Source of the DNA: Escherichia coli
Lineage (GTDB): Bacteria > Pseudomonadota > Gammaproteobacteria > Enterobacterales > Enterobacteriaceae
NCBI RefSeq assembly: GCF_003018235.1
Contig: NZ_CP027437.1
DNA length: 64,000 bases
Strand: one strand, 5' to 3'
This document shows positions 28,225-52,167 of the stretch, one piece after another. A program made the position numbers and the translations under genes. The first letter of the stretch is position 1, and each line of letters begins with the position of its first letter. The notes below the pieces were generated by a model. That model was not told the origin of the DNA. It searched no databases and worked only from the letters and a program-made list of their open reading frames with translations.

Positions 28225-28911
28225 TTAGAAGTTCAGATTTTTCAGTGCATTCAGTGCAGAGCCCACATCCTCAGCGTCGCGCAGGGACAGTGCGCCATAG
28301 CCCCCGGCCATGAATGCTTTGGCCTGGGTACGGGAGAGTCCGACATCACGCAGGACTCTTTCGATTTTTTTCTGTTCGGGGATTTCCCCGCGGGCCAGCG
28401 CGTTCTTGACGTCGCTGATCCGCGCCTCGTCGTTAGACGGAAACGTCACCAGACTGACTTCCCAGAGGTCGATTTCTTTCAACAGAAAGGCTTCTTTGCT
28501 CCGGTCGTATTCCCAGTCTTTCAGGACGTACCCAATAGAAAGGCCGGTTAACGAACCGGCCTTCATGTGTGCATGTGCGCGTTTTGCGAGGGGATCATCA
28601 TCAATAAGCAACCGTCCCCTGACGTAAAGCCCGACATCGTCTTCCTTCATTTCGGTGTAAACACCGATGGGTTCATCCATGCGGTGCTGCCAGAGCAGCG
28701 CAGGTAACGCTTTTCTGTCACTCCACGCCCGCAGGGAAGCAGCAAATGCCCCGGACATCACCACATCATCGTGGCTGTCCTTTACACCAAAGACGGAGCC
28801 ATACCCTTCAAACTCACCGGAGTCACTGACAGATTTCAGACTCAGCGGTACATCAAGACGTTGTTTCGTCTGCATTGGCGTTATCCTTCTGCTTACCGGC
28901 TTTACTGCCAT
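28225..28911 (-). CDS. Prohead protease (HK97 family serine peptidase)
   Basis: 228-aa ORF between portal and capsid; protease-like N-terminal region. Confidence 0.75.
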   Translation of the reverse strand: MAVKPVSRRITPMQTKQRLDVPLSLKSVSDSGEFEGYGSVFGVKDSHDDVVMSGAFAASLRAWSDRKALPALLWQHRMDEPIGVYTEMKEDDVGLYVRGRLLIDDDPLAKRAHAHMKAGSLTGLSIGYVLKDWEYDRSKEAFLLKEIDLWEVSLVTFPSNDEARISDVKNALARGEIPEQKKIERVLRDVGLSRTQAKAFMAGGYGALSLRDAEDVGSALNALKNLNF

Positions 28912-30094
28912 CGGAGGGTTTCGTGGTCATGTTCATCGGTGTGAGATAGACATCCCCACCGGGACGCGGATTCATATCTTCCAGGTCGCGGCAGTCATTG
29001 GGAGAGTAAATTCCCCAGTTAATCCCGGTGGCGTAGGCTTCAAAACGGGACTTCATATCCCCGCGCAGTAACGCCCCGGCGTTAAATTTGGCGTAATAAA
29101 CGCCCTGCTTACTTTTTCGTACCAGTCCGGTGTTGATCCGCTGCTCAATGCGGGTCAGATACGGCACCAGTGAATAGTTGATAAATCCCAGCCCCAGCTC
29201 TTCGATATTGTTGAAGGTGGCGCGATCGGTGTTCTGCACCATGTGCAATGGCACACGGAACAGACGACAGATTTCTTCAAGCTGAAACTTGCGGGTTTCC
29301 AGGAACTGGCTGTCCTCGGCGTTCAGCGCCATCGACTTCCAGTCCAGCCCCATCTCAAGGATCATCGGGCGGTGAGCATTACCAAGCCCGGTGTGACGCT
29401 CCTCAAAATCTTTCTTCAGACGCTCATAAGCCTGATCCGACAGCGTCTGCTCTGTACGCAACACACCGGACGTCACCGCACCATTGCTGAACAGTCTGGC
29501 CCCGTGCTCTTCGGTCGCAGCTGCCAGCGATATTGCCTCGCGGGCATAGGCGATGGGATTCAGTCCCACCAGACCGTCCAGCGTCAGCGTGCGCACATGC
29601 CAGATATCTTCCTGGCTCAGTACATCCGTGGAGCCGTCCGGGAATGTGACCTGGTAAACCGGTTCCCAGCTACTGTTAAGCTTCGGTACCACACAACCTG
29701 GGTCGACGGGCAGCAGTTCAGCCACTTCGCCAAATGCTTTCACTTTGTAGGCGTAAAAGTTTCCCCGCAGGCACAGACAGGTGATCACCAGCTCCCAGAA
29801 CTCCTGCGGCGTCATATAGCCATTGGGATGCGTGGAGATCAGCTTATGCAGACGTTCGCCGGTGGCTCTCTGTTTCAGGCTGCCGTTCAGGTGATACAGG
29901 TTGCAGGGCAACATCCCGACCGACTCCGCCAGCACCCTGACGCAGGAAAAAACCGCCGTCAGTCGCATGGCCCGCTGGCTGCTGATCTGCTTTCCGGTAT
30001 AGGTGTCATATGACAGCCCGATAGCATCCGCCAGCTCTGCTGGCGTGGTCACCGGTGCGTCACTTTTTCGTTGAAATAATCCCGAAAAGAACAC
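28853..30094 (-). CDS. Portal protein (HK97 family)
   Basis: 413-aa ORF after terminase large subunit; conserved order TerS-TerL-portal-protease-capsid. Confidence 0.8.
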   Translation of the reverse strand: MFFSGLFQRKSDAPVTTPAELADAIGLSYDTYTGKQISSQRAMRLTAVFSCVRVLAESVGMLPCNLYHLNGSLKQRATGERLHKLISTHPNGYMTPQEFWELVITCLCLRGNFYAYKVKAFGEVAELLPVDPGCVVPKLNSSWEPVYQVTFPDGSTDVLSQEDIWHVRTLTLDGLVGLNPIAYAREAISLAAATEEHGARLFSNGAVTSGVLRTEQTLSDQAYERLKKDFEERHTGLGNAHRPMILEMGLDWKSMALNAEDSQFLETRKFQLEEICRLFRVPLHMVQNTDRATFNNIEELGLGFINYSLVPYLTRIEQRINTGLVRKSKQGVYYAKFNAGALLRGDMKSRFEAYATGINWGIYSPNDCRDLEDMNPRPGGDVYLTPMNMTTKPSDGSKAGKQKDNANADETTS

Positions 30095-30287: not shown

Positions 30288-32021
30288 TTAAAGCGAGCGG
30301 ATCCCGTAGGACTCAATGTGATCAGACAGCGTGTCTTCTTTCTCGTACAGCATGGCTCTGCCAACCGCCATAATCAGCGCAACTGCACCATCAATTTTGT
30401 TTTCCGCCTGCTCCTTGACGGGCTTCACCACATCATCGTTACCCGGAATGGTTTTGCCGACCACGTTGCCGATACACCAGGTCATGATGGGATTGCCGTC
30501 ATGATGAAAACGCCCCGATTCAATTGCCGCTTCCAGCTCTTTCAGCGGGTCGGACATGTTGGTGTAGTTCTGAATGATGGTGATGGGGTTCAGGTCTTCA
30601 TCCGCAAGGTCATGCGACAGCCCGGTCGCCCCGAAGGGGTCGATGGGTGACTCACTGACCGGGCTGATTTTGTTCGCCGCTTTGGCCTCCTCGAGGATGT
30701 AGCGATAATCCACCTCCGCACCATCGGTAACGGTCAGAACGCCCATTTCCACCCATTTCTGAAAGCGCTCGGCTGTCCGGCGATCTTCATTTTTCTCGAC
30801 GCTGTACACCGTGTCATACGGTACCCAGAAGCGCGGAGCCACACTGTAGTAATGCGTTTTACCGTCAATCTCGCGGGTATAAAGTCGCGCCATACTGTTC
30901 ATATCCAGCTTACGCGCCAGGTCAAAGGCCAGAATGCACGGCTGCCCCTCAAACTGCTCAAGGGTCAGTGATTTATCCTCGCAGCTCTGCCAGCTCACCA
31001 GGTTGAAATACGCCGAACGCGCCGACACCCAGATATTGAGGTGTTTTGTTTTAAAGACGTTTGCCAGACGGGCGTTATTTTTCGCACGCTGCTGCTGACT
31101 TAACAAAAATTCGCGATAAACCGACACGCCAATATTTGGATTGGCTTTTTCCAGCACCTGCGGGTCGGTCCAGTCGTCACCTTCATCAACGGTATAGATG
31201 ATCCCGAACAGTTCATCGTTGGGCACCGAGCCGTTGAGCATCTCGATGACTTCCCGCCGCTTGTCGTAGCACGGCCCCTCAATGTTGTACCCGGCAGTAG
31301 TAATGGCCCACATCAGTGGCTGACGTCGCGCCCCCATCCCGGTAAGCATCGTGGTGTAAAGCGCATCGGTGGCGTGCTCGTGATATTCATCCACCACCGC
31401 ACAGTGGGGTGATGATCCATCACCGGGGTTACCGATCAGCGGTTCAAAACGCGCACCATCCTCCGGACGGTTCATGTTTGAGGCGTTAACCTCAATCCCG
31501 AACGCTTCCGTCAGCATGGGTGTGCGTTTACACATCAGTCGCGCCGGGCGAAAGACTTCCCACGCCTGTTTCTCTGTCGTGGCACCGGAATACACTTCCG
31601 CGCCAAACTCGTTATCACAGGCAAAACAATACAGGGCGACACCGGCAGAGATTGCCGATTTGCCGTTCTTACGGGGGATTTCGGTATACACCTCACGGAA
31701 GCGGCGCAGCCGGGAGCCTTTATTGACCCAGCCAAACGCGCAGCAGATCACAAAGAGCTGCCACGGCTCCAGCGTGATGGGCATCCTCTTGAATGCCCAC
31801 TCACCCTTGGTGTGCGGCAACAGCTGAATAAATTTGGCGGCCCGTTCAGCCAGGTCCTTGTCGAAGCGGTAACGAAACGACTTACTTTTTTCCGCCATCA
31901 GGTCATCAAGATGGCGCTGGCAGGCCTGAATCACAAACTGGCAGGCCACAATCTTTCCGCGAACGACATCCCGGGCATACTGATTGGCAGCATTTACGTT
32001 GGGGTAAGATTTCCGGCTCAT
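30288..32021 (-). CDS. Terminase large subunit
   Basis: 577-aa ORF with Walker A-like motif ([14 protein letters not shown]) and C-terminal nuclease region; overlaps small-subunit stop. Confidence 0.85.
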
Positions 32022-32521
32022 GATTCGATGATTTTCAGAAACGGGTTAGTGGCTTTCTTCTGCCCCGCCAGGCCAATCAGACGCTGGCGGCTGCTGGGGT
32101 CGAGTCCGAGCATTGCCCCCGTGCTGCTCATCTCGGACTCCTGTTCTTTTTTGGCGGTCAGCTCCGGGTTTTTGACCATACCGCCCATTGCACCGGTGAT
32201 GGTGTTGCCCTGGCTGGCAATATTCTTCACGGCACGTCGCCAGAACTCATAGGCCACGCACCACCGCTCAAGTACCGCCAGGTCAGTCACGCACAACAGG
32301 CCCTGACCGCAGAGTTCTTTGGTTGTCAGTTGCCACATGATCGTGGCGAGAGGGAGATCTTCTTCAGCGAACCACTCCGGTGGCTCAACACCTTTGATGG
32401 GCGTAAAAACAGGTTCATCTTTGTTCAGGGCTCGCTTGCCGGGGTTTCCGGCCAGCGCCTTGCGCGCCGTTGGCTTGGGGCGACGCCCGGAACGCCCCGC
32501 CGTTCCAGCCATATGCGGCAC
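32018..32521 (-). CDS. Terminase small subunit (P27 family)
   Basis: 167-aa ORF directly upstream of the large subunit. Confidence 0.75.
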
Positions 32522-32637
32522 TCCTGGTTAAATTTCATTTTTCGCGGGTATAAAAAAACGATGGGGCGGGCAGTCCGGAAGACATCAGGTCACAGGGATT
32601 TGACCCGCCCCTCCCCTCTGGCAGTGGGAACTGGTTC

Positions 32638-32988
32638 TTACTTCAGCCATTCACGGGCCGTCTTCGCCTTGTGGCACGGCCAGCACAGACTCTGCAGATT
32701 ACTGTCGGCATCAGTGCCGCCATGTGCTTTAGGGATGATGTGGTCAACGGTTTTCGCCTCACGCACCACACCGGCACGCAGACATAACTGACACAGGCCT
32801 TTGTCACGCTTCAGGACACGCACGCGGATAACATCCCACTTCGAACCATAACCGCGCTGATGACGAGATTGTCCTGGCTTGTATTGCTTCCAGCCTTCGC
32901 TTTTATGGCTTTCACAATAGCCTGACGGGTCAGTAGTGGTATTGCGGCAACCGCGAACGCGGCAGGCTTTTGGTGTTCGTGGCGGCAT
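32638..32988 (-). CDS. HNH endonuclease associated with terminase (cos-cleavage helper)
   Basis: 116-aa ORF with paired Cys clusters and H-N-H motif (…VDHIIPKAHGGTDADSNLQSLCWPCHKAKT). Confidence 0.85.
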   Translation of the reverse strand: MPPRTPKACRVRGCRNTTTDPSGYCESHKSEGWKQYKPGQSRHQRGYGSKWDVIRVRVLKRDKGLCQLCLRAGVVREAKTVDHIIPKAHGGTDADSNLQSLCWPCHKAKTAREWLK

Positions 32989-33040
32989 ATCTACTCCAAT
33001 GAAAAAGCTACCGGTTGATAACCGATGGCTTTGATTGTTC

Positions 33041-33412
33041 TTACCTGTTTTGAAGAATCTCCCGCTTTCTTACAATACATTCCGTCGTTTCTCTATAGCT
33101 GCACACGTGCTCCCGTGAACATTGGTATGTGTGCAATTCGCCGATGGCATCACCGATACCAGTCAGCACATCTTTTTCATGCAGAATGGTCACCTGCAGA
33201 CGGTTGGTTGGGCAGATAATGTTTGAATAGTTCATTTTGGTGTCTCCTTTGCTTTCGAGACACCAAAATCCCATCACGACACGTTTACCGCCACAAACAT
33301 TATTGCAGGCACCCATTGAATACCTGCGGGACTGATAAACACAGCCTCCTCCATACGTAGTGAAACCATTTTCATATCTCCAGTAATGAATTCTTTGAAG
33401 AGTCGCAATCAA
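33041..33412 (-). CDS. Hypothetical protein (123 aa); coding status uncertain
   Basis: ORF between lysis cassette and HNH; contains a perfect 13-bp hairpin inside it. Confidence 0.25.
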   Translation of the reverse strand: MIATLQRIHYWRYENGFTTYGGGCVYQSRRYSMGACNNVCGGKRVVMGFWCLESKGDTKMNYSNIICPTNRLQVTILHEKDVLTGIGDAIGELHTYQCSREHVCSYRETTECIVRKREILQNR

Positions 33413-33605
33413 TACGACTCACTAATGGGGAGGCATGTCCAACGCGTTGGACGAGTTGCCTACTTGATTTAGATGACACTTTAGAAGGACAGAATGCCTT
33501 CCTCACTCAAATAACATCAATTAAGGAGGTTCAACATGCTTCGTTCCAAAAGTCAGTTGACTGTAATTATTACTACGTCACCTTATGCCGAAGACCTTTT
33601 CCGCT

Positions 33606-33881
33606 TCACTTTGAGCCTGATTCACTTCTACCTGACCGGCTCGCCTCTATCCTTCTGATCCCCGCTTTATCCAGATTGCACTGCCCTAGCGCCGACAACA
33701 GACTGACATTCAAATCTAGACTACCCGCATAAGTCAGCGGTTCAGAAATGGCTGGTTGCGGGGTTTCAGCGGTCAGACTCGCCGGTAACGGTATAGCCGG
33801 AACTGGCACGTAAACTGTCCGCGAACTTTCGCAACCGGTCAGCAGCGGCAGCAGGCACAGGGCGTACAGCACAATCATCAT
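33606..33881 (-). CDS. Putative o-spanin Rz1-like lipoprotein, overlapping and extending past Rz
   Basis: Alternative frame inside Rz: MMIVLYALCLLPLLTGC (lipobox) followed by a Pro-rich segment. Confidence 0.5.
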   Translation of the reverse strand: MMIVLYALCLLPLLTGCESSRTVYVPVPAIPLPASLTAETPQPAISEPLTYAGSLDLNVSLLSALGQCNLDKAGIRRIEASRSGRSESGSK

Positions 33882-34158
33882 CCGCAACAGCCACTTTGAT
33901 ATCAGCCTGGGTTCTCTGTGACTCCAGTGCGATCTGCTGTTTTGCATGCTGGTTAGCCTCCAGAACTGTATTGACGATTTGCAGTGATTGCAGGACGTTA
34001 TTGGTAATAGCGGTTGCCGATTCGGCATTTTGTACAGCCTCATCAGCACGTTTCTTTTCGCGCTGGTATTTGCTGTGGTAGTGGTTAGCTGACCAGACGA
34101 GAGAACCGAATAAAGTCAGGAGGAAAGCAGAAATAACCAGCTTATAGCGAAGTTTCAT
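33766..34158 (-). CDS. i-spanin Rz-like protein
   Basis: N-terminal TM helix then coiled-coil region; directly after endolysin. Confidence 0.65.
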   Translation of the reverse strand: MKLRYKLVISAFLLTLFGSLVWSANHYHSKYQREKKRADEAVQNAESATAITNNVLQSLQIVNTVLEANQHAKQQIALESQRTQADIKVAVADDDCAVRPVPAAAADRLRKFADSLRASSGYTVTGESDR

Positions 34159-34618
34159 TAACCACCCCGCCAGCTTCTTTGAATTTGGCAATCAGACTAT
34201 CGATCTTGTGTTCATACTGACCGTAGCCAGCACCGGGCAATGAGGCCCAAATATTGCTGCAACGATCAATAGCCTGACGAATATCACCCCGATCAATCAG
34301 CGGCAGCGCGCCGCGTTCTTTAATCTGCTGTAACGCCACCGCATCCTGGCTTTTCGGGGAGAAATCTTTCAGTCCAAGCTGTTTACGGTAGGCGTCCCAC
34401 CATTTCGACAGCAGTTGATAACGCCCGGCGGCGGTGGATTTCAGTTTCGGGTTAAGCGTAACCAGCTTACGTGGATGATCGGAGTAATCAGTAAGCAGTT
34501 CGCCACCAACGATAACGTCATAACCATGATTTCTGGTCTTCTGCCATCCGTTATCAGTTCCTTCTGACCACGCCAGCATATCGAGGAAGGCTTTACGCTG
34601 AGGATTAAGGTTTTGCAT
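34142..34618 (-). CDS. Endolysin, lambda R-type lytic transglycosylase
   Basis: 158-aa ORF nearly co-linear with lambda R as I recall it (…QRKAFLDMLAWSEGTDNG…DYSDHPRKLVTLNPKLKSTAAGRYQLLS…). Confidence 0.9.
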   Translation of the reverse strand: MQNLNPQRKAFLDMLAWSEGTDNGWQKTRNHGYDVIVGGELLTDYSDHPRKLVTLNPKLKSTAAGRYQLLSKWWDAYRKQLGLKDFSPKSQDAVALQQIKERGALPLIDRGDIRQAIDRCSNIWASLPGAGYGQYEHKIDSLIAKFKEAGGVVNETSL

Positions 34619-35449: not shown

Positions 35450-35908
35450 CGTCTGCGCAGATCGTTAGATTCGGCAACATTGTAACTGGATAAGGAATAG
35501 AAAACCTTGGAATTTTAAGAAGAAACTGATTGATCGATTATTTAACGAGCGAACACATCCATACACCCCAGACGGGTACTACGACAAAGGCCATGAAATA
35601 AGTAACTTTTGCTTGAATGTTTTGCATTTCGCTTCCTTAGCAGTCCGATAAGTACTGTCTGCTCATCCAACCTAACGAATGTAGATCAGAATGACAAGTC
35701 TTTCGCGCTAATTTCAATTTGATATCTGTTCGTAAACATGATGGCGCGAAATATTACGCATGAAGTGCTTCTACATCAACATAAAAGTTACTTTTTTTGT
35801 GTTCACAGCATGTAAAGTAAAAGCCCCGCACGATGGCGAGGCTGTTAATTCTTTGTCGACCAACAAAGCTATGGCGACGATATCAGATTTACATGAAATA
35901 TAAGCGTT
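35450..35908 (-). promoter_or_regulatory. Probable late promoter / Q-utilisation region between Q-like gene and lysis cassette
   Basis: Long non-coding AT-rich gap in the position of lambda PR'-qut; no specific site assigned. Confidence 0.3.
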
Positions 35909-36598
35909 TCAGTTCGGTTTTGCAAGACTTACGTGCAAACTTGTCGCCTTTTGTTGTGAACGTGATCGCGTTACTGAGATAAGCGCACCGCTATCGAGTC
36001 GCATAAAGCAGCTACGCATTGCCAACCAGTGAGGCAGGTATGTCTCTGTCCAGGTGGATTTCGCCACGCCAACCAGTTCCGCCAGCTTCTGGTATTCGTA
36101 GGCATCTTTCCCGACCAACCCTGCTTTGACATCCTGCGCTGCCAGCCATATCAGCTTCTTCAGGCGCTCCATGGTCTTGCCTGCCACCCTCTTCGCGCCG
36201 AGATACCCCCTGAATTCAGACCACGCCCACTGGGTGATCGCCACCTGGTATTCAAAGCTGATGTTTTCACTGTAACTCCACAGCAACCACGCTTTCTGAT
36301 GTTCTTCGAGAGACAGAACCGCGCGGCGCCATGAAGATGTTGAGAACTCAACCTGGCTGACCAGTGCAATGGATGAACCTTTTGCGTACGACTGCTTACC
36401 GGAAATCGGCGGATTATCCAGCGTAATCATCTTGCCCGTTACCTCATCCAGAATGCGCGGCTTCTTTCGTTTATATGTACCAGTATCAAATTGTGCATGC
36501 TCCAGCCAGGCTTCAAGCTGGCCTTTCGTTGCTCCGCTCAAATCAGCAGTAGCCACAATGAGTTGCTCGCGGACATACTGTAAATATTGGGTATTCAT
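35909..36598 (-). CDS. Putative late-gene antiterminator (Q-like)
   Basis: 229-aa ORF located between rusA and the lysis cassette, the canonical Q position; not similar to lambda Q, assignment positional. Confidence 0.5.
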   Translation of the reverse strand: MNTQYLQYVREQLIVATADLSGATKGQLEAWLEHAQFDTGTYKRKKPRILDEVTGKMITLDNPPISGKQSYAKGSSIALVSQVEFSTSSWRRAVLSLEEHQKAWLLWSYSENISFEYQVAITQWAWSEFRGYLGAKRVAGKTMERLKKLIWLAAQDVKAGLVGKDAYEYQKLAELVGVAKSTWTETYLPHWLAMRSCFMRLDSGALISVTRSRSQQKATSLHVSLAKPN

Positions 36599-50713: not shown

Positions 50714-51056
50714 GGCCTGTCAGTTTCTTAAGATATCCAGACCAACCGCCACCAACTGGATACGAACAGGCCGCCTACAGGCAACACGTAAAGATCCAAC
50801 CAAGTCAAAATCTCCTTACCTCACAACACGGCAAGCCTGCATTGCGGCGCTTCAGTCTCCGCTGCATACTGTCCAGGTGAGCGCGGGTGATGGCATAACA
50901 GAGGAAAGAAAATGTCACTCTTCCGCAGAAATGAAATATGGTATGCCTCGTATTCGCTCCCGGGCGGGAAACGAATTAAGGAATCTCTTGGCACAAAGGA
51001 CAAGCGGCAAGCTCAGGAGTTGCACGACAAGCGAAAAGCAGAACTCTGGCGAGTAG
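50685..51056 (+). CDS. xis: Putative excisionase (Xis), overlapping int start; C-terminal extent uncertain
   Basis: HTH-like N-terminus ([26 protein letters not shown]) immediately upstream of and overlapping int. Confidence 0.5.
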
Positions 51057-52075
51057 AAAAGCTAGGGGATTTACCTGATGTCACTTTTGAAGAGGCCTGC
51101 CTAAGATGGCTTGAGGAAAAAGCTGATAAAAAATCTCTCGATTCAGATAAAAGCCGGATTGAGTTCTGGCTTGAACATTTTGAGGGTATAAGGCTTAAAG
51201 ATATCTCGGAGGCAAAGATTTACTCTGCTGTAAGCAGAATGCATAACAGAAAGACGAAAGAAATATGGAAACAGAAAGTTCAGGCCGCCATCAGGAAAGG
51301 TAAAGAACCGCCTGTTTATGAACCAAAGCCAGTATCAACTCAGACAAAGGCAAAGCATCTTGCCATGATAAAGGCCATTCTCCGTGCTGCAGAACGCGAC
51401 TGGAAGTGGCTGGAAAAAGCGCCTGTCATCAAGATACCAGCGGTCAGAAACAAGCGAGTCAGATGGCTGGAAAAGGAGGAAGCAAAACGCCTTATTGATG
51501 AGTGCCCCGAACCACTGAAATCTGTCGTCAAGTTTGCGCTGGCAACTGGTCTGAGAAAGTCGAACATCATAAATCTGGAATGGCAACAAATCGACATGCA
51601 GCGACGAGTTGCCTGGGTGAATCCAGAAGAGAGCAAATCAAACCGCGCCATTGGTGTGGCGCTGAACGATACCGCCTGTAAAGTGTTGCGTGATCAAATA
51701 GGCAAGCATCACAAATGGGTGTTTGTACATACCAAGGCGGCTAAGCGAGCAGATGGAACATCAACGCCTGCGGTCAGGAAGATGCGCATCGACAGCAAGA
51801 CATCATGGCTATCAGCTTGTCGTCGTGCAGGAATTGAAGATTTCCGTTTCCATGACCTCAGACACACCTGGGCAAGCTGGCTGATTCAGTCAGGCGTCCC
51901 ATTATCAGTGCTTCAGGAAATGGGCGGATGGGAGTCCATAGAAATGGTTCGTAGGTATGCTCACCTTGCGCCTAATCATTTGACAGAGCATGCGAGGAAA
52001 ATAGACGACATTTTTGGTGATAATGTCCCAAATATGTCCCACTCTGGAATTATGGAGGATATAAAGAAGGCGTAA
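50912..52075 (+). CDS. int: Tyrosine integrase (lambda Int family; DLP12 IntD-like)
   Basis: 387-aa ORF with C-terminal catalytic signature (…[15 protein letters not shown]…VRRYAHL) adjacent to argU. Confidence 0.92.
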
Positions 52076-52090
52076 CTGATTGAATTGTAA

Positions 52091-52167
52091 TGGCGCGCCC
52101 TGCAGGATTCGAACCTGCGGCCCACGACTTAGAAGGTCGTTGCTCTATCCAACTGAGCTAAGGGCGC
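52091..52167 (-). tRNA. argU: tRNA-Arg (anticodon UCU)
   Basis: Reverse complement reads GCGCCCTTAGCTCAGTTGGATAGAGCAACGACCTTCTAAGTCGTGGGCCGCAGGTTCGAATCCTGCAGGGCGCGCCA: cloverleaf with TCT anticodon and CCA end. Confidence 0.93.

What the first reader, a model, noticed from the sequence alone, without database searches (positions are those of the whole stretch)
32522..32637. GC-rich inverted repeat and T-tract between HNH endonuclease and terminase small subunit: candidate cos-proximal structure or terminator
GGGGCGGG (32563-32570) and CCCGCCCC (32604-32611) form an 8 bp GC stem around a ~33 nt spacer, followed on the minus strand by a T-rich run. The position between the HNH gene and TerS is where cos sites of HK97-like phages lie.
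Basis: seen in the sequence. Interest (0 to 1): 0.3.

Follow-up and report, generated by a model that had tools for sequence, protein, structure and literature searches.

The report
Prophage cos (genome-end) site
The GC-rich repeat sits in the already-known DNA-packaging cut site (cos) of an SfV/SfI-type prophage, and one arm of the repeat is the sticky end itself, so the feature is real but ordinary.

Summary
GGGGCGGG (32563-32570) and CCCGCCCC (32604-32611) are perfectly complementary with a 33-nt spacer, and a T7 run follows on the minus strand. It lies between an HNH endonuclease gene and a P27-family TerS gene, both on the minus strand. An 8-bp inverted repeat arises in about 10% of shuffles, so the repeat alone proves little.

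Comparison settles what it is. Linear records of phages SfI, SfV and SfIV break inside this spacer. Virion-end sequencing of SfI gave a 10-nt cohesive end, 5'-TGCCCGCCCC-3', which is identical to window 32572..32563 on the minus strand. The downstream arm is therefore the sticky end. The upstream arm is part of a conserved G-block.

The mapped 10-nt 3' ends of Burkholderia phages (CGCCCGCTTC) and the HK97 record end align column for column with it. A profile built only from distant relatives hits the window once, here (E=1.9e-17).

The stem shows no covariation and is broken without compensation in close relatives. The T-run is part of a conserved AT-rich stretch upstream of a CCCGCGAAA box, which I infer to be the TerS-binding site. 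A terminator role is poorly supported.

Verdict: a known cos site, of low interest.

The parts
32638..32988 (-). HNH endonuclease gene (116 aa), the accessory nuclease of the packaging module
   Evidence: Pfam PF01844 E=2.3e-16. PHROG 144 'HNH endonuclease' E=2e-45. Homologous to orf53 of SfV and the HNH gene of SfI.
32597..32616 (-). Upstream G-block GGGGAGGGGCGGG followed by TCAAATC. This is a conserved cos sub-element of unknown role.
   Evidence: A G-run block at the same distance from the nick is present in all 21 diverse relatives aligned, including HK97 (GGGGGGGGATCAAATC) and phi1026b-type phages (GGGGAGGGGGGG).
32573..32596 (-). Variable spacer ending in the conserved GGAC that precedes the bottom-strand nick
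   Evidence: The spacer is mosaic among loci whose TerS is 99% identical. GAC is invariant or nearly so immediately 5' of the cohesive end in HK97, phi1026b, Kp4886-1 and Psymv2.
32563..32572 (-). 10-nt cohesive end 5'-TGCCCGCCCC-3' (the cosN equivalent). Inferred nicks: minus strand between 32563 and 32562, plus strand between 32572 and 32573, giving 3' overhangs.
   Evidence: Identical to the 10-nt gap found by sequencing SfI virion DNA ends (PMC3636060). The SfI record ends with this sequence. It aligns column for column with the 10-base 3' extension CGCCCGCTTC of phi644-2/phiE125/phi1026b (PMC2920897) and with the last 10 nt of the HK97 record.
32552..32558 (-). T7 run at +5..+11 after the top-strand nick, part of a conserved AT-rich stretch.
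   Evidence: The equivalent positions are T/A-rich in all relatives (AAATTTT, GAATTTTT, TTTTTTT, AATTTTTT), including those with no hairpin directly upstream.
32530..32549 (-). ACCCGCGAAAAATGAAATTT box at +14..+33, the inferred TerS-binding site (cosB equivalent)
   Evidence: The CCGCGAAA core is conserved in nearly all the diverse relatives whose TerS is only about 45-50% identical (E. coli, Klebsiella, Burkholderia, Pseudomonas, Moraxella phages). It is analogous to the mapped HK97 TerS site at +15..+29 (CTAACCCGATTTTTT: a C:G pair plus an A-tract) (PMC11331095).
32018..32512 (-). Small terminase subunit gene (P27 / Terminase_4 family), with an AGGAG ribosome-binding site at 32525..32521
   Evidence: Pfam PF05119 E=4.4e-21. 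98% identical to SfV orf1. The SfV annotation starts at the corresponding ATG.
30288..32021 (-). Large terminase subunit gene (ATPase and nuclease domains)
   Evidence: Pfam PF03354 and PF20441.

Best explanation
The region is the cos site of an apparently complete SfV/SfI-type (HK97-style, HNH-dependent) myovirus prophage.

During lytic growth, concatemeric phage DNA is recognised by the small terminase at the conserved CCCGCGAAA/A-tract box. This box lies about 14-33 bp downstream of the cut, in the direction of the head genes.

TerL, together with the adjacent HNH endonuclease, then makes two staggered nicks. One is on the coding (window minus) strand between 32563 and 32562. The other is on the window plus strand between 32572 and 32573. 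This leaves 10-nt 3' cohesive ends: TGCCCGCCCC on the right genome end and its complement on the left.

The 'inverted repeat' is the juxtaposition of two separately conserved cos elements, the C-rich cohesive end and an upstream G-block. It is not a selected hairpin. The T7 run belongs to the AT-rich, bendable DNA between the nick and the TerS box.

What is shown: sequence identity to a cos that was mapped experimentally, conserved architecture, and intact packaging genes. What is inferred: the polarity of the overhang in this phage, which protein cuts which strand, and the TerS-box assignment.
For: 1. Linear genome records of SfI, SfV and SfIV end inside this intergenic region.
2. SfI virion-end sequencing found a 10-nt gap, 5'-TGCCCGCCCC-3' (PMC3636060). 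The SfI record ends ...GGACTGCCCGCCCC and restarts GTCGTTTTTTTATACCCGCG. The window has the same 10-mer at 32572..32563.
3. phi644-2/phiE125/phi1026b carry 10-base 3' extensions, CGCCCGCTTC (PMC2920897). HK97 has 10-nt 3' overhangs (PMC11331095; PMC9410871). Their record ends align without gaps to the same columns. The distance from TCAAATC to the genome end is 41 nt in both HK97 and the window.
4. An nhmmer profile built from 18 distant relatives only matches the 64-kb window once, at 32623..32523 on the minus strand (58 bits, E=1.9e-17, ungapped).
5. HNH, TerS, TerL and portal are intact. The rest of the prophage is present: integrase beside a tRNA-Arg gene, Q, endolysin, protease, capsid, sheath and tape measure.
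6. In HK97, the adjacent HNH protein gp74 stimulates cos cleavage, and TerS binds +15..+29 downstream of the cut.
Against: - No virion DNA from this particular prophage has been examined.
- The SfV GenBank record is broken 8 nt upstream of the SfI-mapped end, and the original SfV paper could not be read.
- The base after the overhang is A here and in SfV, but G in SfI and most relatives.
- The 3' polarity for the SfI group is inferred from the 'gap' seen in run-off sequencing and from relatives. The SfI paper does not state it.
- HK97 TerS is not detectably homologous to this TerS, so the TerS-box assignment rests on analogy and conservation.
Confidence: 0.9

Rival explanations
1. The inverted repeat plus U7 acts as an RNA hairpin or intrinsic terminator on the minus-strand late transcript. 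It would insulate the head genes from upstream transcription, except when RNA polymerase has been modified by Q.
For: In the window the 64-nt core folds at -26.4 kcal/mol, z=-3.4, with only 1 of 200 shuffles folding as well. A U7 run follows. A Q-like antiterminator gene lies upstream at 35909-36598, so a read-through design is conceivable.
Against: - The loop is 33 nt and the U-run starts 4 nt after the stem, so the terminator scan does not call it.
- There is no Rfam match.
- None of the 8 pairs shows compensatory change. Six of 21 near relatives, with the same TerS and the same cohesive end, break two central pairs and fold no better than shuffles (z=+0.3).
- In distant relatives the complementarity is 2-7 nt, yet the T-rich run is still present, up to 22 nt away from any hairpin.
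Confidence: 0.1
2. The two arms are symmetric half-sites (5'-CCCGCCCC-3' on each strand) bound by a dimeric packaging protein, TerL or HNH. On this view the dyad itself is functional at the DNA level.
For: A G-run upstream and a C-rich cohesive end downstream are found throughout the family, which gives an approximate dyad. Lambda cosN has partial two-fold symmetry (established knowledge).
Against: - The centre of the repeat (about 32587) lies about 19.5 bp from the centre of the two inferred nicks (32567.5), so it is not the symmetry axis of cutting.
- Exact complementarity is confined to the SfV group: 8 nt there against 2-7 nt elsewhere.
- The GGGGGAGG variants keep the same cohesive end and TerS.
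Confidence: 0.15
3. The site is a relic. The prophage is cryptic, and the cos sequence is conserved by descent but no longer used.
For: Nothing specific. Many E. coli prophages are defective, and related sequence occurs in 1174 of 5426 complete E. coli genomes.
Against: All packaging and morphogenesis ORFs that were checked are full length and match their families end to end. Integrase and the adjacent tRNA-Arg gene are present. The cos core is identical to that of the viable phages SfI and SfV.
Confidence: 0.07

Closest known systems
cos site of Shigella flexneri serotype-converting phages SfI / SfV / SfIV / SfII
   Same: - Identical 10-nt cohesive-end sequence TGCCCGCCCC.
- The same G-block, GGAC, T7 run and CCCGCGAAAAATGAAATTT box.
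- The same HNH-cos-TerS-TerL gene order.
- TerS about 98% identical.
   Different: The base after the overhang is A, as in SfV, whereas SfI has G. There are a few substitutions in the spacer, for example GATGTC against GACGTC. The host locus differs: integrase lies beside tRNA-Arg(tct), whereas SfI integrates at tRNA-thrW.
cos site of Burkholderia phages phiE125 / phi1026b / phi644-2
   Same: - 10-base 3' extension at the aligned position (CGCCCGCTTC against TGCCCGCCCC), preceded by GGAC.
- Upstream G-block.
- Downstream AT-rich run and the ACGCCCGCGAAA box.
- HNH gene directly upstream and a Terminase_4 TerS about 50% identical.
   Different: These are siphoviruses of another host. Their spacer carries a covarying 6-bp dyad (GAAGGC/GCCTTC and variants) that the window lacks. 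Their G-block is not complementary to the cohesive end.
cos site of coliphage HK97 (HNH gp74-dependent, TerS site at +15..+29)
   Same: - 10-nt 3' overhang preceded by GAC.
- GGGGGGGGATCAAATC lies 41 nt upstream of the genome end, the same spacing as in the window.
- A CCCG plus A/T-tract box downstream of the cut.
- An adjacent HNH gene that stimulates cos cleavage.
   Different: HK97 TerS shows no detectable sequence similarity to this TerS and has no Terminase_4 hit. Its CCCG box sits about 4 bp further from the nick. In HK97 a further open reading frame seems to lie between the HNH gene and cos.
cos of phage lambda (cosQ-cosN-cosB)
   Same: The logic is the same: a nicking site, with a TerS-binding region on the head-gene side and a further element upstream.
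   Different: Lambda makes 5' overhangs of 12 nt (from my own knowledge; PMC9410871, gives 10 nt). It needs no HNH protein, and it has R-sites and an IHF site in cosB. There is no sequence similarity.

Membership tests
cos site of SfV/SfI-type (P27-family TerS + HNH) phages | Lies in the intergenic region between the HNH endonuclease gene and the TerS gene, upstream of TerL and portal | tested here: met
   ORFs and Pfam; PHROGs.
cos site of SfV/SfI-type (P27-family TerS + HNH) phages | Contains the experimentally mapped 10-nt cohesive-end sequence 5'-TGCCCGCCCC-3' | tested here: met
   Window 32572..32563 on the minus strand, compared with SfI virion-end sequencing (PMC3636060) and the SfI record end.
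cos site of SfV/SfI-type (P27-family TerS + HNH) phages | Flanks are homologous to the termini of linear phage genome records | tested here: met
   Megablast hits at 92-98% identity, with records ending inside the region. Sequences of the ends.
cos site of SfV/SfI-type (P27-family TerS + HNH) phages | Virion DNA of this phage is actually cut here | not testable with these tools
   Needs induced particles and end mapping.
HNH-dependent 3'-overhang cos architecture (G-block / GAC|10 nt| / AT-run / CCGCGAAA box) | Matches a profile of the architecture built from distant relatives only | tested here: met
   nhmmer gives a single significant hit in 64 kb, at 32623..32523 on the minus strand (E=1.9e-17, ungapped). 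Alignment.
HK97 cos (Byrnievirus) | TerS homologous to HK97 gp1, which recognises +15..+29 through an arginine clamp | tested here: not met
   BLASTP finds no similarity. HK97 gp1 has no Pfam family, while the window TerS is Terminase_4.
HK97 cos (Byrnievirus) | C:G pair plus adjacent A-tract about 15-30 bp downstream of the cut | tested here: inconclusive
   An analogous ACCCGCGAAAAAT lies at +14..+26, about 4 bp closer to the nick than in HK97. Binding was not tested.
Rho-independent (intrinsic) terminator | GC-rich stem with a short loop (about 3-8 nt) | tested here: not met
   The stem is 8 bp and all G/C, but the loop is 33 nt and only partly self-paired. The terminator scan does not call it.
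Rho-independent (intrinsic) terminator | U-tract immediately (0-2 nt) after the stem | tested here: not met
   AUCG separates the stem from the U7 run.
Rho-independent (intrinsic) terminator | Stem maintained in relatives (covariation or conservation of pairing) | tested here: not met
   No compensatory changes, and 6 of 21 distinct relatives break 2 pairs. Variant fold z=+0.3. Outer complementarity is 2-7 nt in distant relatives.
Lambda-type cos | 5' overhang of 12 nt with cosB R-sites and IHF site, and no HNH partner | tested here: not met
   The cohesive end is a 10-nt 'gap' and is a 3' extension in relatives. An HNH gene is adjacent.

The most novel reading that the evidence does not exclude
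The G-block that supplies the upstream arm (GGGGAGGGGCGGG-TCAAATC, about 35-54 bp upstream of the top-strand nick) may be a cos sub-site that has not been described. It could be a cosQ-like termination signal or a docking site for the HNH/TerL nuclease. It is shared at fixed spacing by HNH-dependent, 3'-overhang cos phages of E. coli, Klebsiella, Burkholderia, Pseudomonas, Moraxella and Psychrobacter, and by HK97, even where the TerS proteins are not detectably related. In the papers I could read, only the downstream TerS site of HK97 has been mapped.
Probability: 0.3. Interest if true: 0.4.

Novelty: already known. Interest (0 to 1): 0.15.

Why it matters
It matters little beyond annotation. 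The result fixes the genome ends of this prophage. That helps with defining the virion chromosome, with predicting cos-dependent transduction or satellite hijacking, and with avoiding a 'terminator' annotation for the repeat.

The comparative by-product could guide mutational dissection of HK97-type cos sites. That by-product is a four-part architecture conserved from E. coli to Burkholderia and Moraxella phages. It includes an upstream G-block with no assigned role and a CCGCGAAA box that probably binds P27-family TerS. So far only the downstream TerS site of HK97 has been defined.

Tried and rejected
- **Rfam search** of 32000-33500 at E<=1 found no family.
- **Promoter and terminator scan** of 31500-34000 called nothing at the site. 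The two terminator-like hairpins it found lie upstream of the HNH gene.
- **Papers not held.** The original SfV genome paper (PubMed 11889106, guessed id PMC134923) and Kala et al. 2014 (PMC4000778) could not be read. The reason the SfV record is broken 8 nt upstream of the SfI-mapped end therefore stays unresolved.
- **TerS homology to HK97 gp1** was rejected: no BLASTP similarity and no Pfam hit for gp1.
- **First IMG/VR scan** with the window TerS returned only loci with 99% identical TerS. These were useful for micro-variation but not for depth. A second scan with phi1026b gp1 gave the needed diversity.
- **Inner dyad in the spacer as a general feature** was rejected. It is significant only in the phi1026b group and in Psymv2 (P 0.02-0.04). 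It is not significant in the window (3 bp, P=0.65) or in most other relatives.
- **phiGamma-type HNH nicking specificity (AC^CGR)** as the explanation of the GAC|CG nick was considered but not pursued. HK97 gp74 is reported as non-specific (PMC3592412), and the window has GAC|TG.
- **Literature search** for a described G-rich cos element in HNH phages returned nothing relevant.

Full report
**Observation**

The + strand reads GGGGCGGG at 32563-32570 and CCCGCCCC at 32604-32611. The arms are perfectly complementary and lie 33 nt apart.

Read on the minus strand, which is the coding strand here, the region runs as follows: HNH stop codon TAA, then GAACCAGTTCCCACTGCCAGAGGGGAGGGGCGGGTCAAATCCCTGTGACCTGATGTCTTCCGGACTGCCCGCCCCATCGTTTTTTTATACCCGCGAAAAATGAAATTTAACCAGGAGTGCCGCAT, then the ATG of TerS.

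Pfam and PHROGs confirm the gene order on the minus strand:
- HNH endonuclease, 32988..32638.
- TerS of the P27/Terminase_4 family, ending at 32018. Its likely ATG is at 32512, as annotated in SfV.
- TerL, 32021..30288.
- Portal, 30094..28853.

The repeat alone is not beyond chance. An inverted repeat of at least 8 bp with a 3-60 nt loop arises in 9.9% of dinucleotide-preserving shuffles of the 116-nt segment. The window holds 78 such repeats, three of them all-GC.

**What it is**

Megablast of 32300-32900 against phage records found the SfV/SfI/SfII/SfIV/ST64B/118970_sal3 group. Several linear records end inside this spacer.

The SfI paper reports direct sequencing of virion DNA termini. Comparison with the prophage revealed a 10-nt gap, 5'-TGCCCGCCCC-3', which the authors took as the cos cohesive end (PMC3636060). 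The SfI record ends ...TCCGGACTGCCCGCCCC and restarts GTCGTTTTTTTATACCCGCGAAAAATG.

The window carries the identical 10-mer at 32572..32563 on the minus strand.

The SfIV paper states that SfI, SfII, SfIV and SfV share this cos (PMC3851460). The SfV GenBank record is broken 8 nt further upstream. I could not read the SfV paper to learn why.

**Deeper relatives**

A tblastn search with TerS found relatives at about 45-50% identity in phages of Burkholderia, Pseudomonas, Vibrio, Moraxella and Psychrobacter.

For phi644-2/phiE125/phi1026b the literature gives 10-base 3' single-stranded extensions, with the right end 5'-CGCCCGCTTC-3' (PMC2920897). The phi1026b record ends ...GGGGAGGGGGGGAGAAAAAGTCTGGAAGGCGCTGCCTTCGGGACCGCCCGCTTC and restarts GTCAAATTTTCACGCCCGCGAAATTAAAAATTCAGGAG.

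HK97 has 10-nt 3' overhangs. Its record ends ...GGGGGGGGATCAAATCTTCAAAACCTTTGCCCCAAATGACCGCCGCCAAA and restarts GTTTGAATTTAACGCTAACCCGATTTTTTTAG.

A MAFFT alignment of 21 diverse cos regions is essentially ungapped. It gives this shared plan:
- a G-block;
- a spacer of about 25 nt ending in GAC;
- a 10-nt C-rich end beginning CG/TG;
- GTC or ATC followed by an AT-rich, T-run stretch;
- an ACg.CCGCGAAA box followed by AAATT;
- the ribosome-binding site of TerS.

The distance from TCAAATC to the genome end is 41 nt in both HK97 and the window.

A profile built only from the 18 distant relatives, excluding the window, SfV and the Klebsiella phage, hits the 64-kb window once. The hit is at 32623..32523 on the minus strand (58 bits, E=1.9e-17), and the next best hit has E=3.1.

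**Is the hairpin a selected structure?**

Eighty IMG/VR loci with 99%-identical TerS gave 46 distinct upstream regions. Everything from the cohesive end to the TerS start is nearly invariant, while the upstream half is mosaic.

Twenty-one distinct cores, counting the window, were aligned and tested:
- The 8 pairs show no compensatory change.
- Six sequences carry GGGGGAGG in place of GGGGCGGG with an unchanged CCCGCCCC, which breaks two central pairs.
- The window core folds well as RNA (-26.4 kcal/mol, z=-3.4). The GGGGGAGG variant folds no better than shuffles (z=+0.3).
- In distant relatives the longest complementarity between the G-block and the cohesive end is 2-7 nt.

The centre of the repeat (about 32587) is about 19.5 bp from the centre of the inferred nicks, so it is not the dyad axis of cutting either.

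I conclude that the perfect repeat is a by-product of two independently conserved elements, a G-run and a C-rich end.

**The T-tract**

The T7 run occupies +5..+11 after the top-strand nick. Equivalent positions are T/A-rich throughout the family. This holds even in the Burkholderia group, where the only hairpin lies 22 nt upstream.

The run is separated from the stem by AUCG, and the loop is 33 nt. The terminator scan does not call it, and Rfam has nothing.

In HK97, TerS binds +15..+29 (CTAACCCGATTTTTT). It reads a C:G pair through Arg128 and needs the adjacent A-tract for DNA deformability (PMC11331095). The window's ACCCGCGAAAAATGAAATTT (+14..+33) is the analogous box.

The CCGCGAAA core of that box is conserved across hosts where TerS itself is only about 50% identical, which indicates strong constraint. 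Because HK97 gp1 is not detectably related to this TerS, assigning the box as the TerS site is an inference.

**Mechanism**

Parts taken from the literature on relatives:
- Terminase cuts concatemers at cos.
- The HNH protein gp74 of HK97 stimulates cos cleavage.
- The ends are 10-nt 3' overhangs.

Parts inferred for this prophage:
- The nicks fall at minus-strand 32563|32562 and plus-strand 32572|32573.
- The overhangs are 3'. A gap, rather than an overlap, in run-off sequencing from both ends is what recessed 5' ends would give.
- TerS docks on the +14..+33 box.
- One strand is cut by TerL and the other by HNH, or by TerL after a translocation step. Both models are discussed for HK97 in PMC11331095.

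**Context**

The prophage looks complete:
- integrase 50912-52075 beside tRNA-Arg(tct) at 52091-52167;
- Q-like antiterminator 35909-36598;
- endolysin 34142-34618;
- protease, major head protein, tail sheath and tape measure.

Related HNH-cos-TerS sequence is present in 1174 of 5426 complete E. coli genomes.

**Verdict**

The cos interpretation is right and can be sharpened, since one arm is the cohesive end itself. The hairpin or terminator reading is poorly supported.

The element is an already-described cos site, so interest is low. The only mildly new point is the family-wide G-block, whose role is unknown.

Noticed in passing
window 33000-33600 (minus strand), ORF 33041-33412: A stretch of about 600 nt with lower GC (0.43-0.47 against about 0.55-0.6 in the flanks) lies between the Rz/Rz1 lysis genes and the HNH gene. 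SfV has only 27 nt at this position. It encodes a 123-aa ORF whose C-terminal half matches phrog_31491 (unknown function). Terminator-like hairpins lie within it at 33327-33305 and at its HNH-proximal end at 33026-33010. Full-length copies occur in only 19 of 5426 complete E. coli genomes. It looks like a moron-type insertion.
   Followed up: partly
window 35820-35893 (minus strand): There is an Rfam match to the isrJ Hfq-binding sRNA (64.9 bits against a gathering score of 37). It lies immediately downstream of the Q-like antiterminator gene (35909-36598) and upstream of the lysis genes. This is the position of a lambdoid late-promoter leader RNA.
   Followed up: no
window 50912-52167: A tyrosine integrase gene (50912-52075, + strand) abuts a tRNA-Arg(tct) gene (52091-52167, minus strand). 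This is probably the prophage attachment site, and it differs from the thrW site used by SfI and SfV.
   Followed up: no
L093-L165 (Burkholderia-type loci), about 25 to 5 nt upstream of the GAC| nick: The cos spacer of phi1026b-type phages carries a 6-bp dyad with apparent compensatory variation: GAAGGC/GCCTTC, GGAGGC/GCCTCC, GAGGGC/GCCCTC and GAAGCG/CGCTTC-type variants. Psymv2 has GAGGG/CCCTC at the same place. The window and most other relatives lack it (3 bp in the window, P=0.65).
   Followed up: partly
L091:142-498 (phi1026b gp82): The GenBank record annotates gp82 of phi1026b as a 'putative class I holin'. Pfam shows it is an HNH endonuclease (PF01844, E=4e-13) sitting directly upstream of cos. 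Vibrio phage H2 has a similar 'holin' label on its HNH gene.
   Followed up: yes
L005-L084 (IMG/VR loci with 99% identical TerS), spacer equivalent to window 32573-32596: There is a sharp mosaic boundary inside cos. From TCCGGAC onward, through the cohesive end, T7 run, TerS box and TerS gene, the sequence is nearly invariant. The G-block side and the HNH gene fall into several divergent classes. This suggests recombination between phages at or near the cos spacer.
   Followed up: partly
window 30867-30883 (minus strand, inside TerL): A second copy of the TerS-box core, TTTATACCCGCGAGATT, lies within the TerL coding region. It is a weak, non-significant profile hit (E=3.1) and is probably chance.
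   Followed up: no
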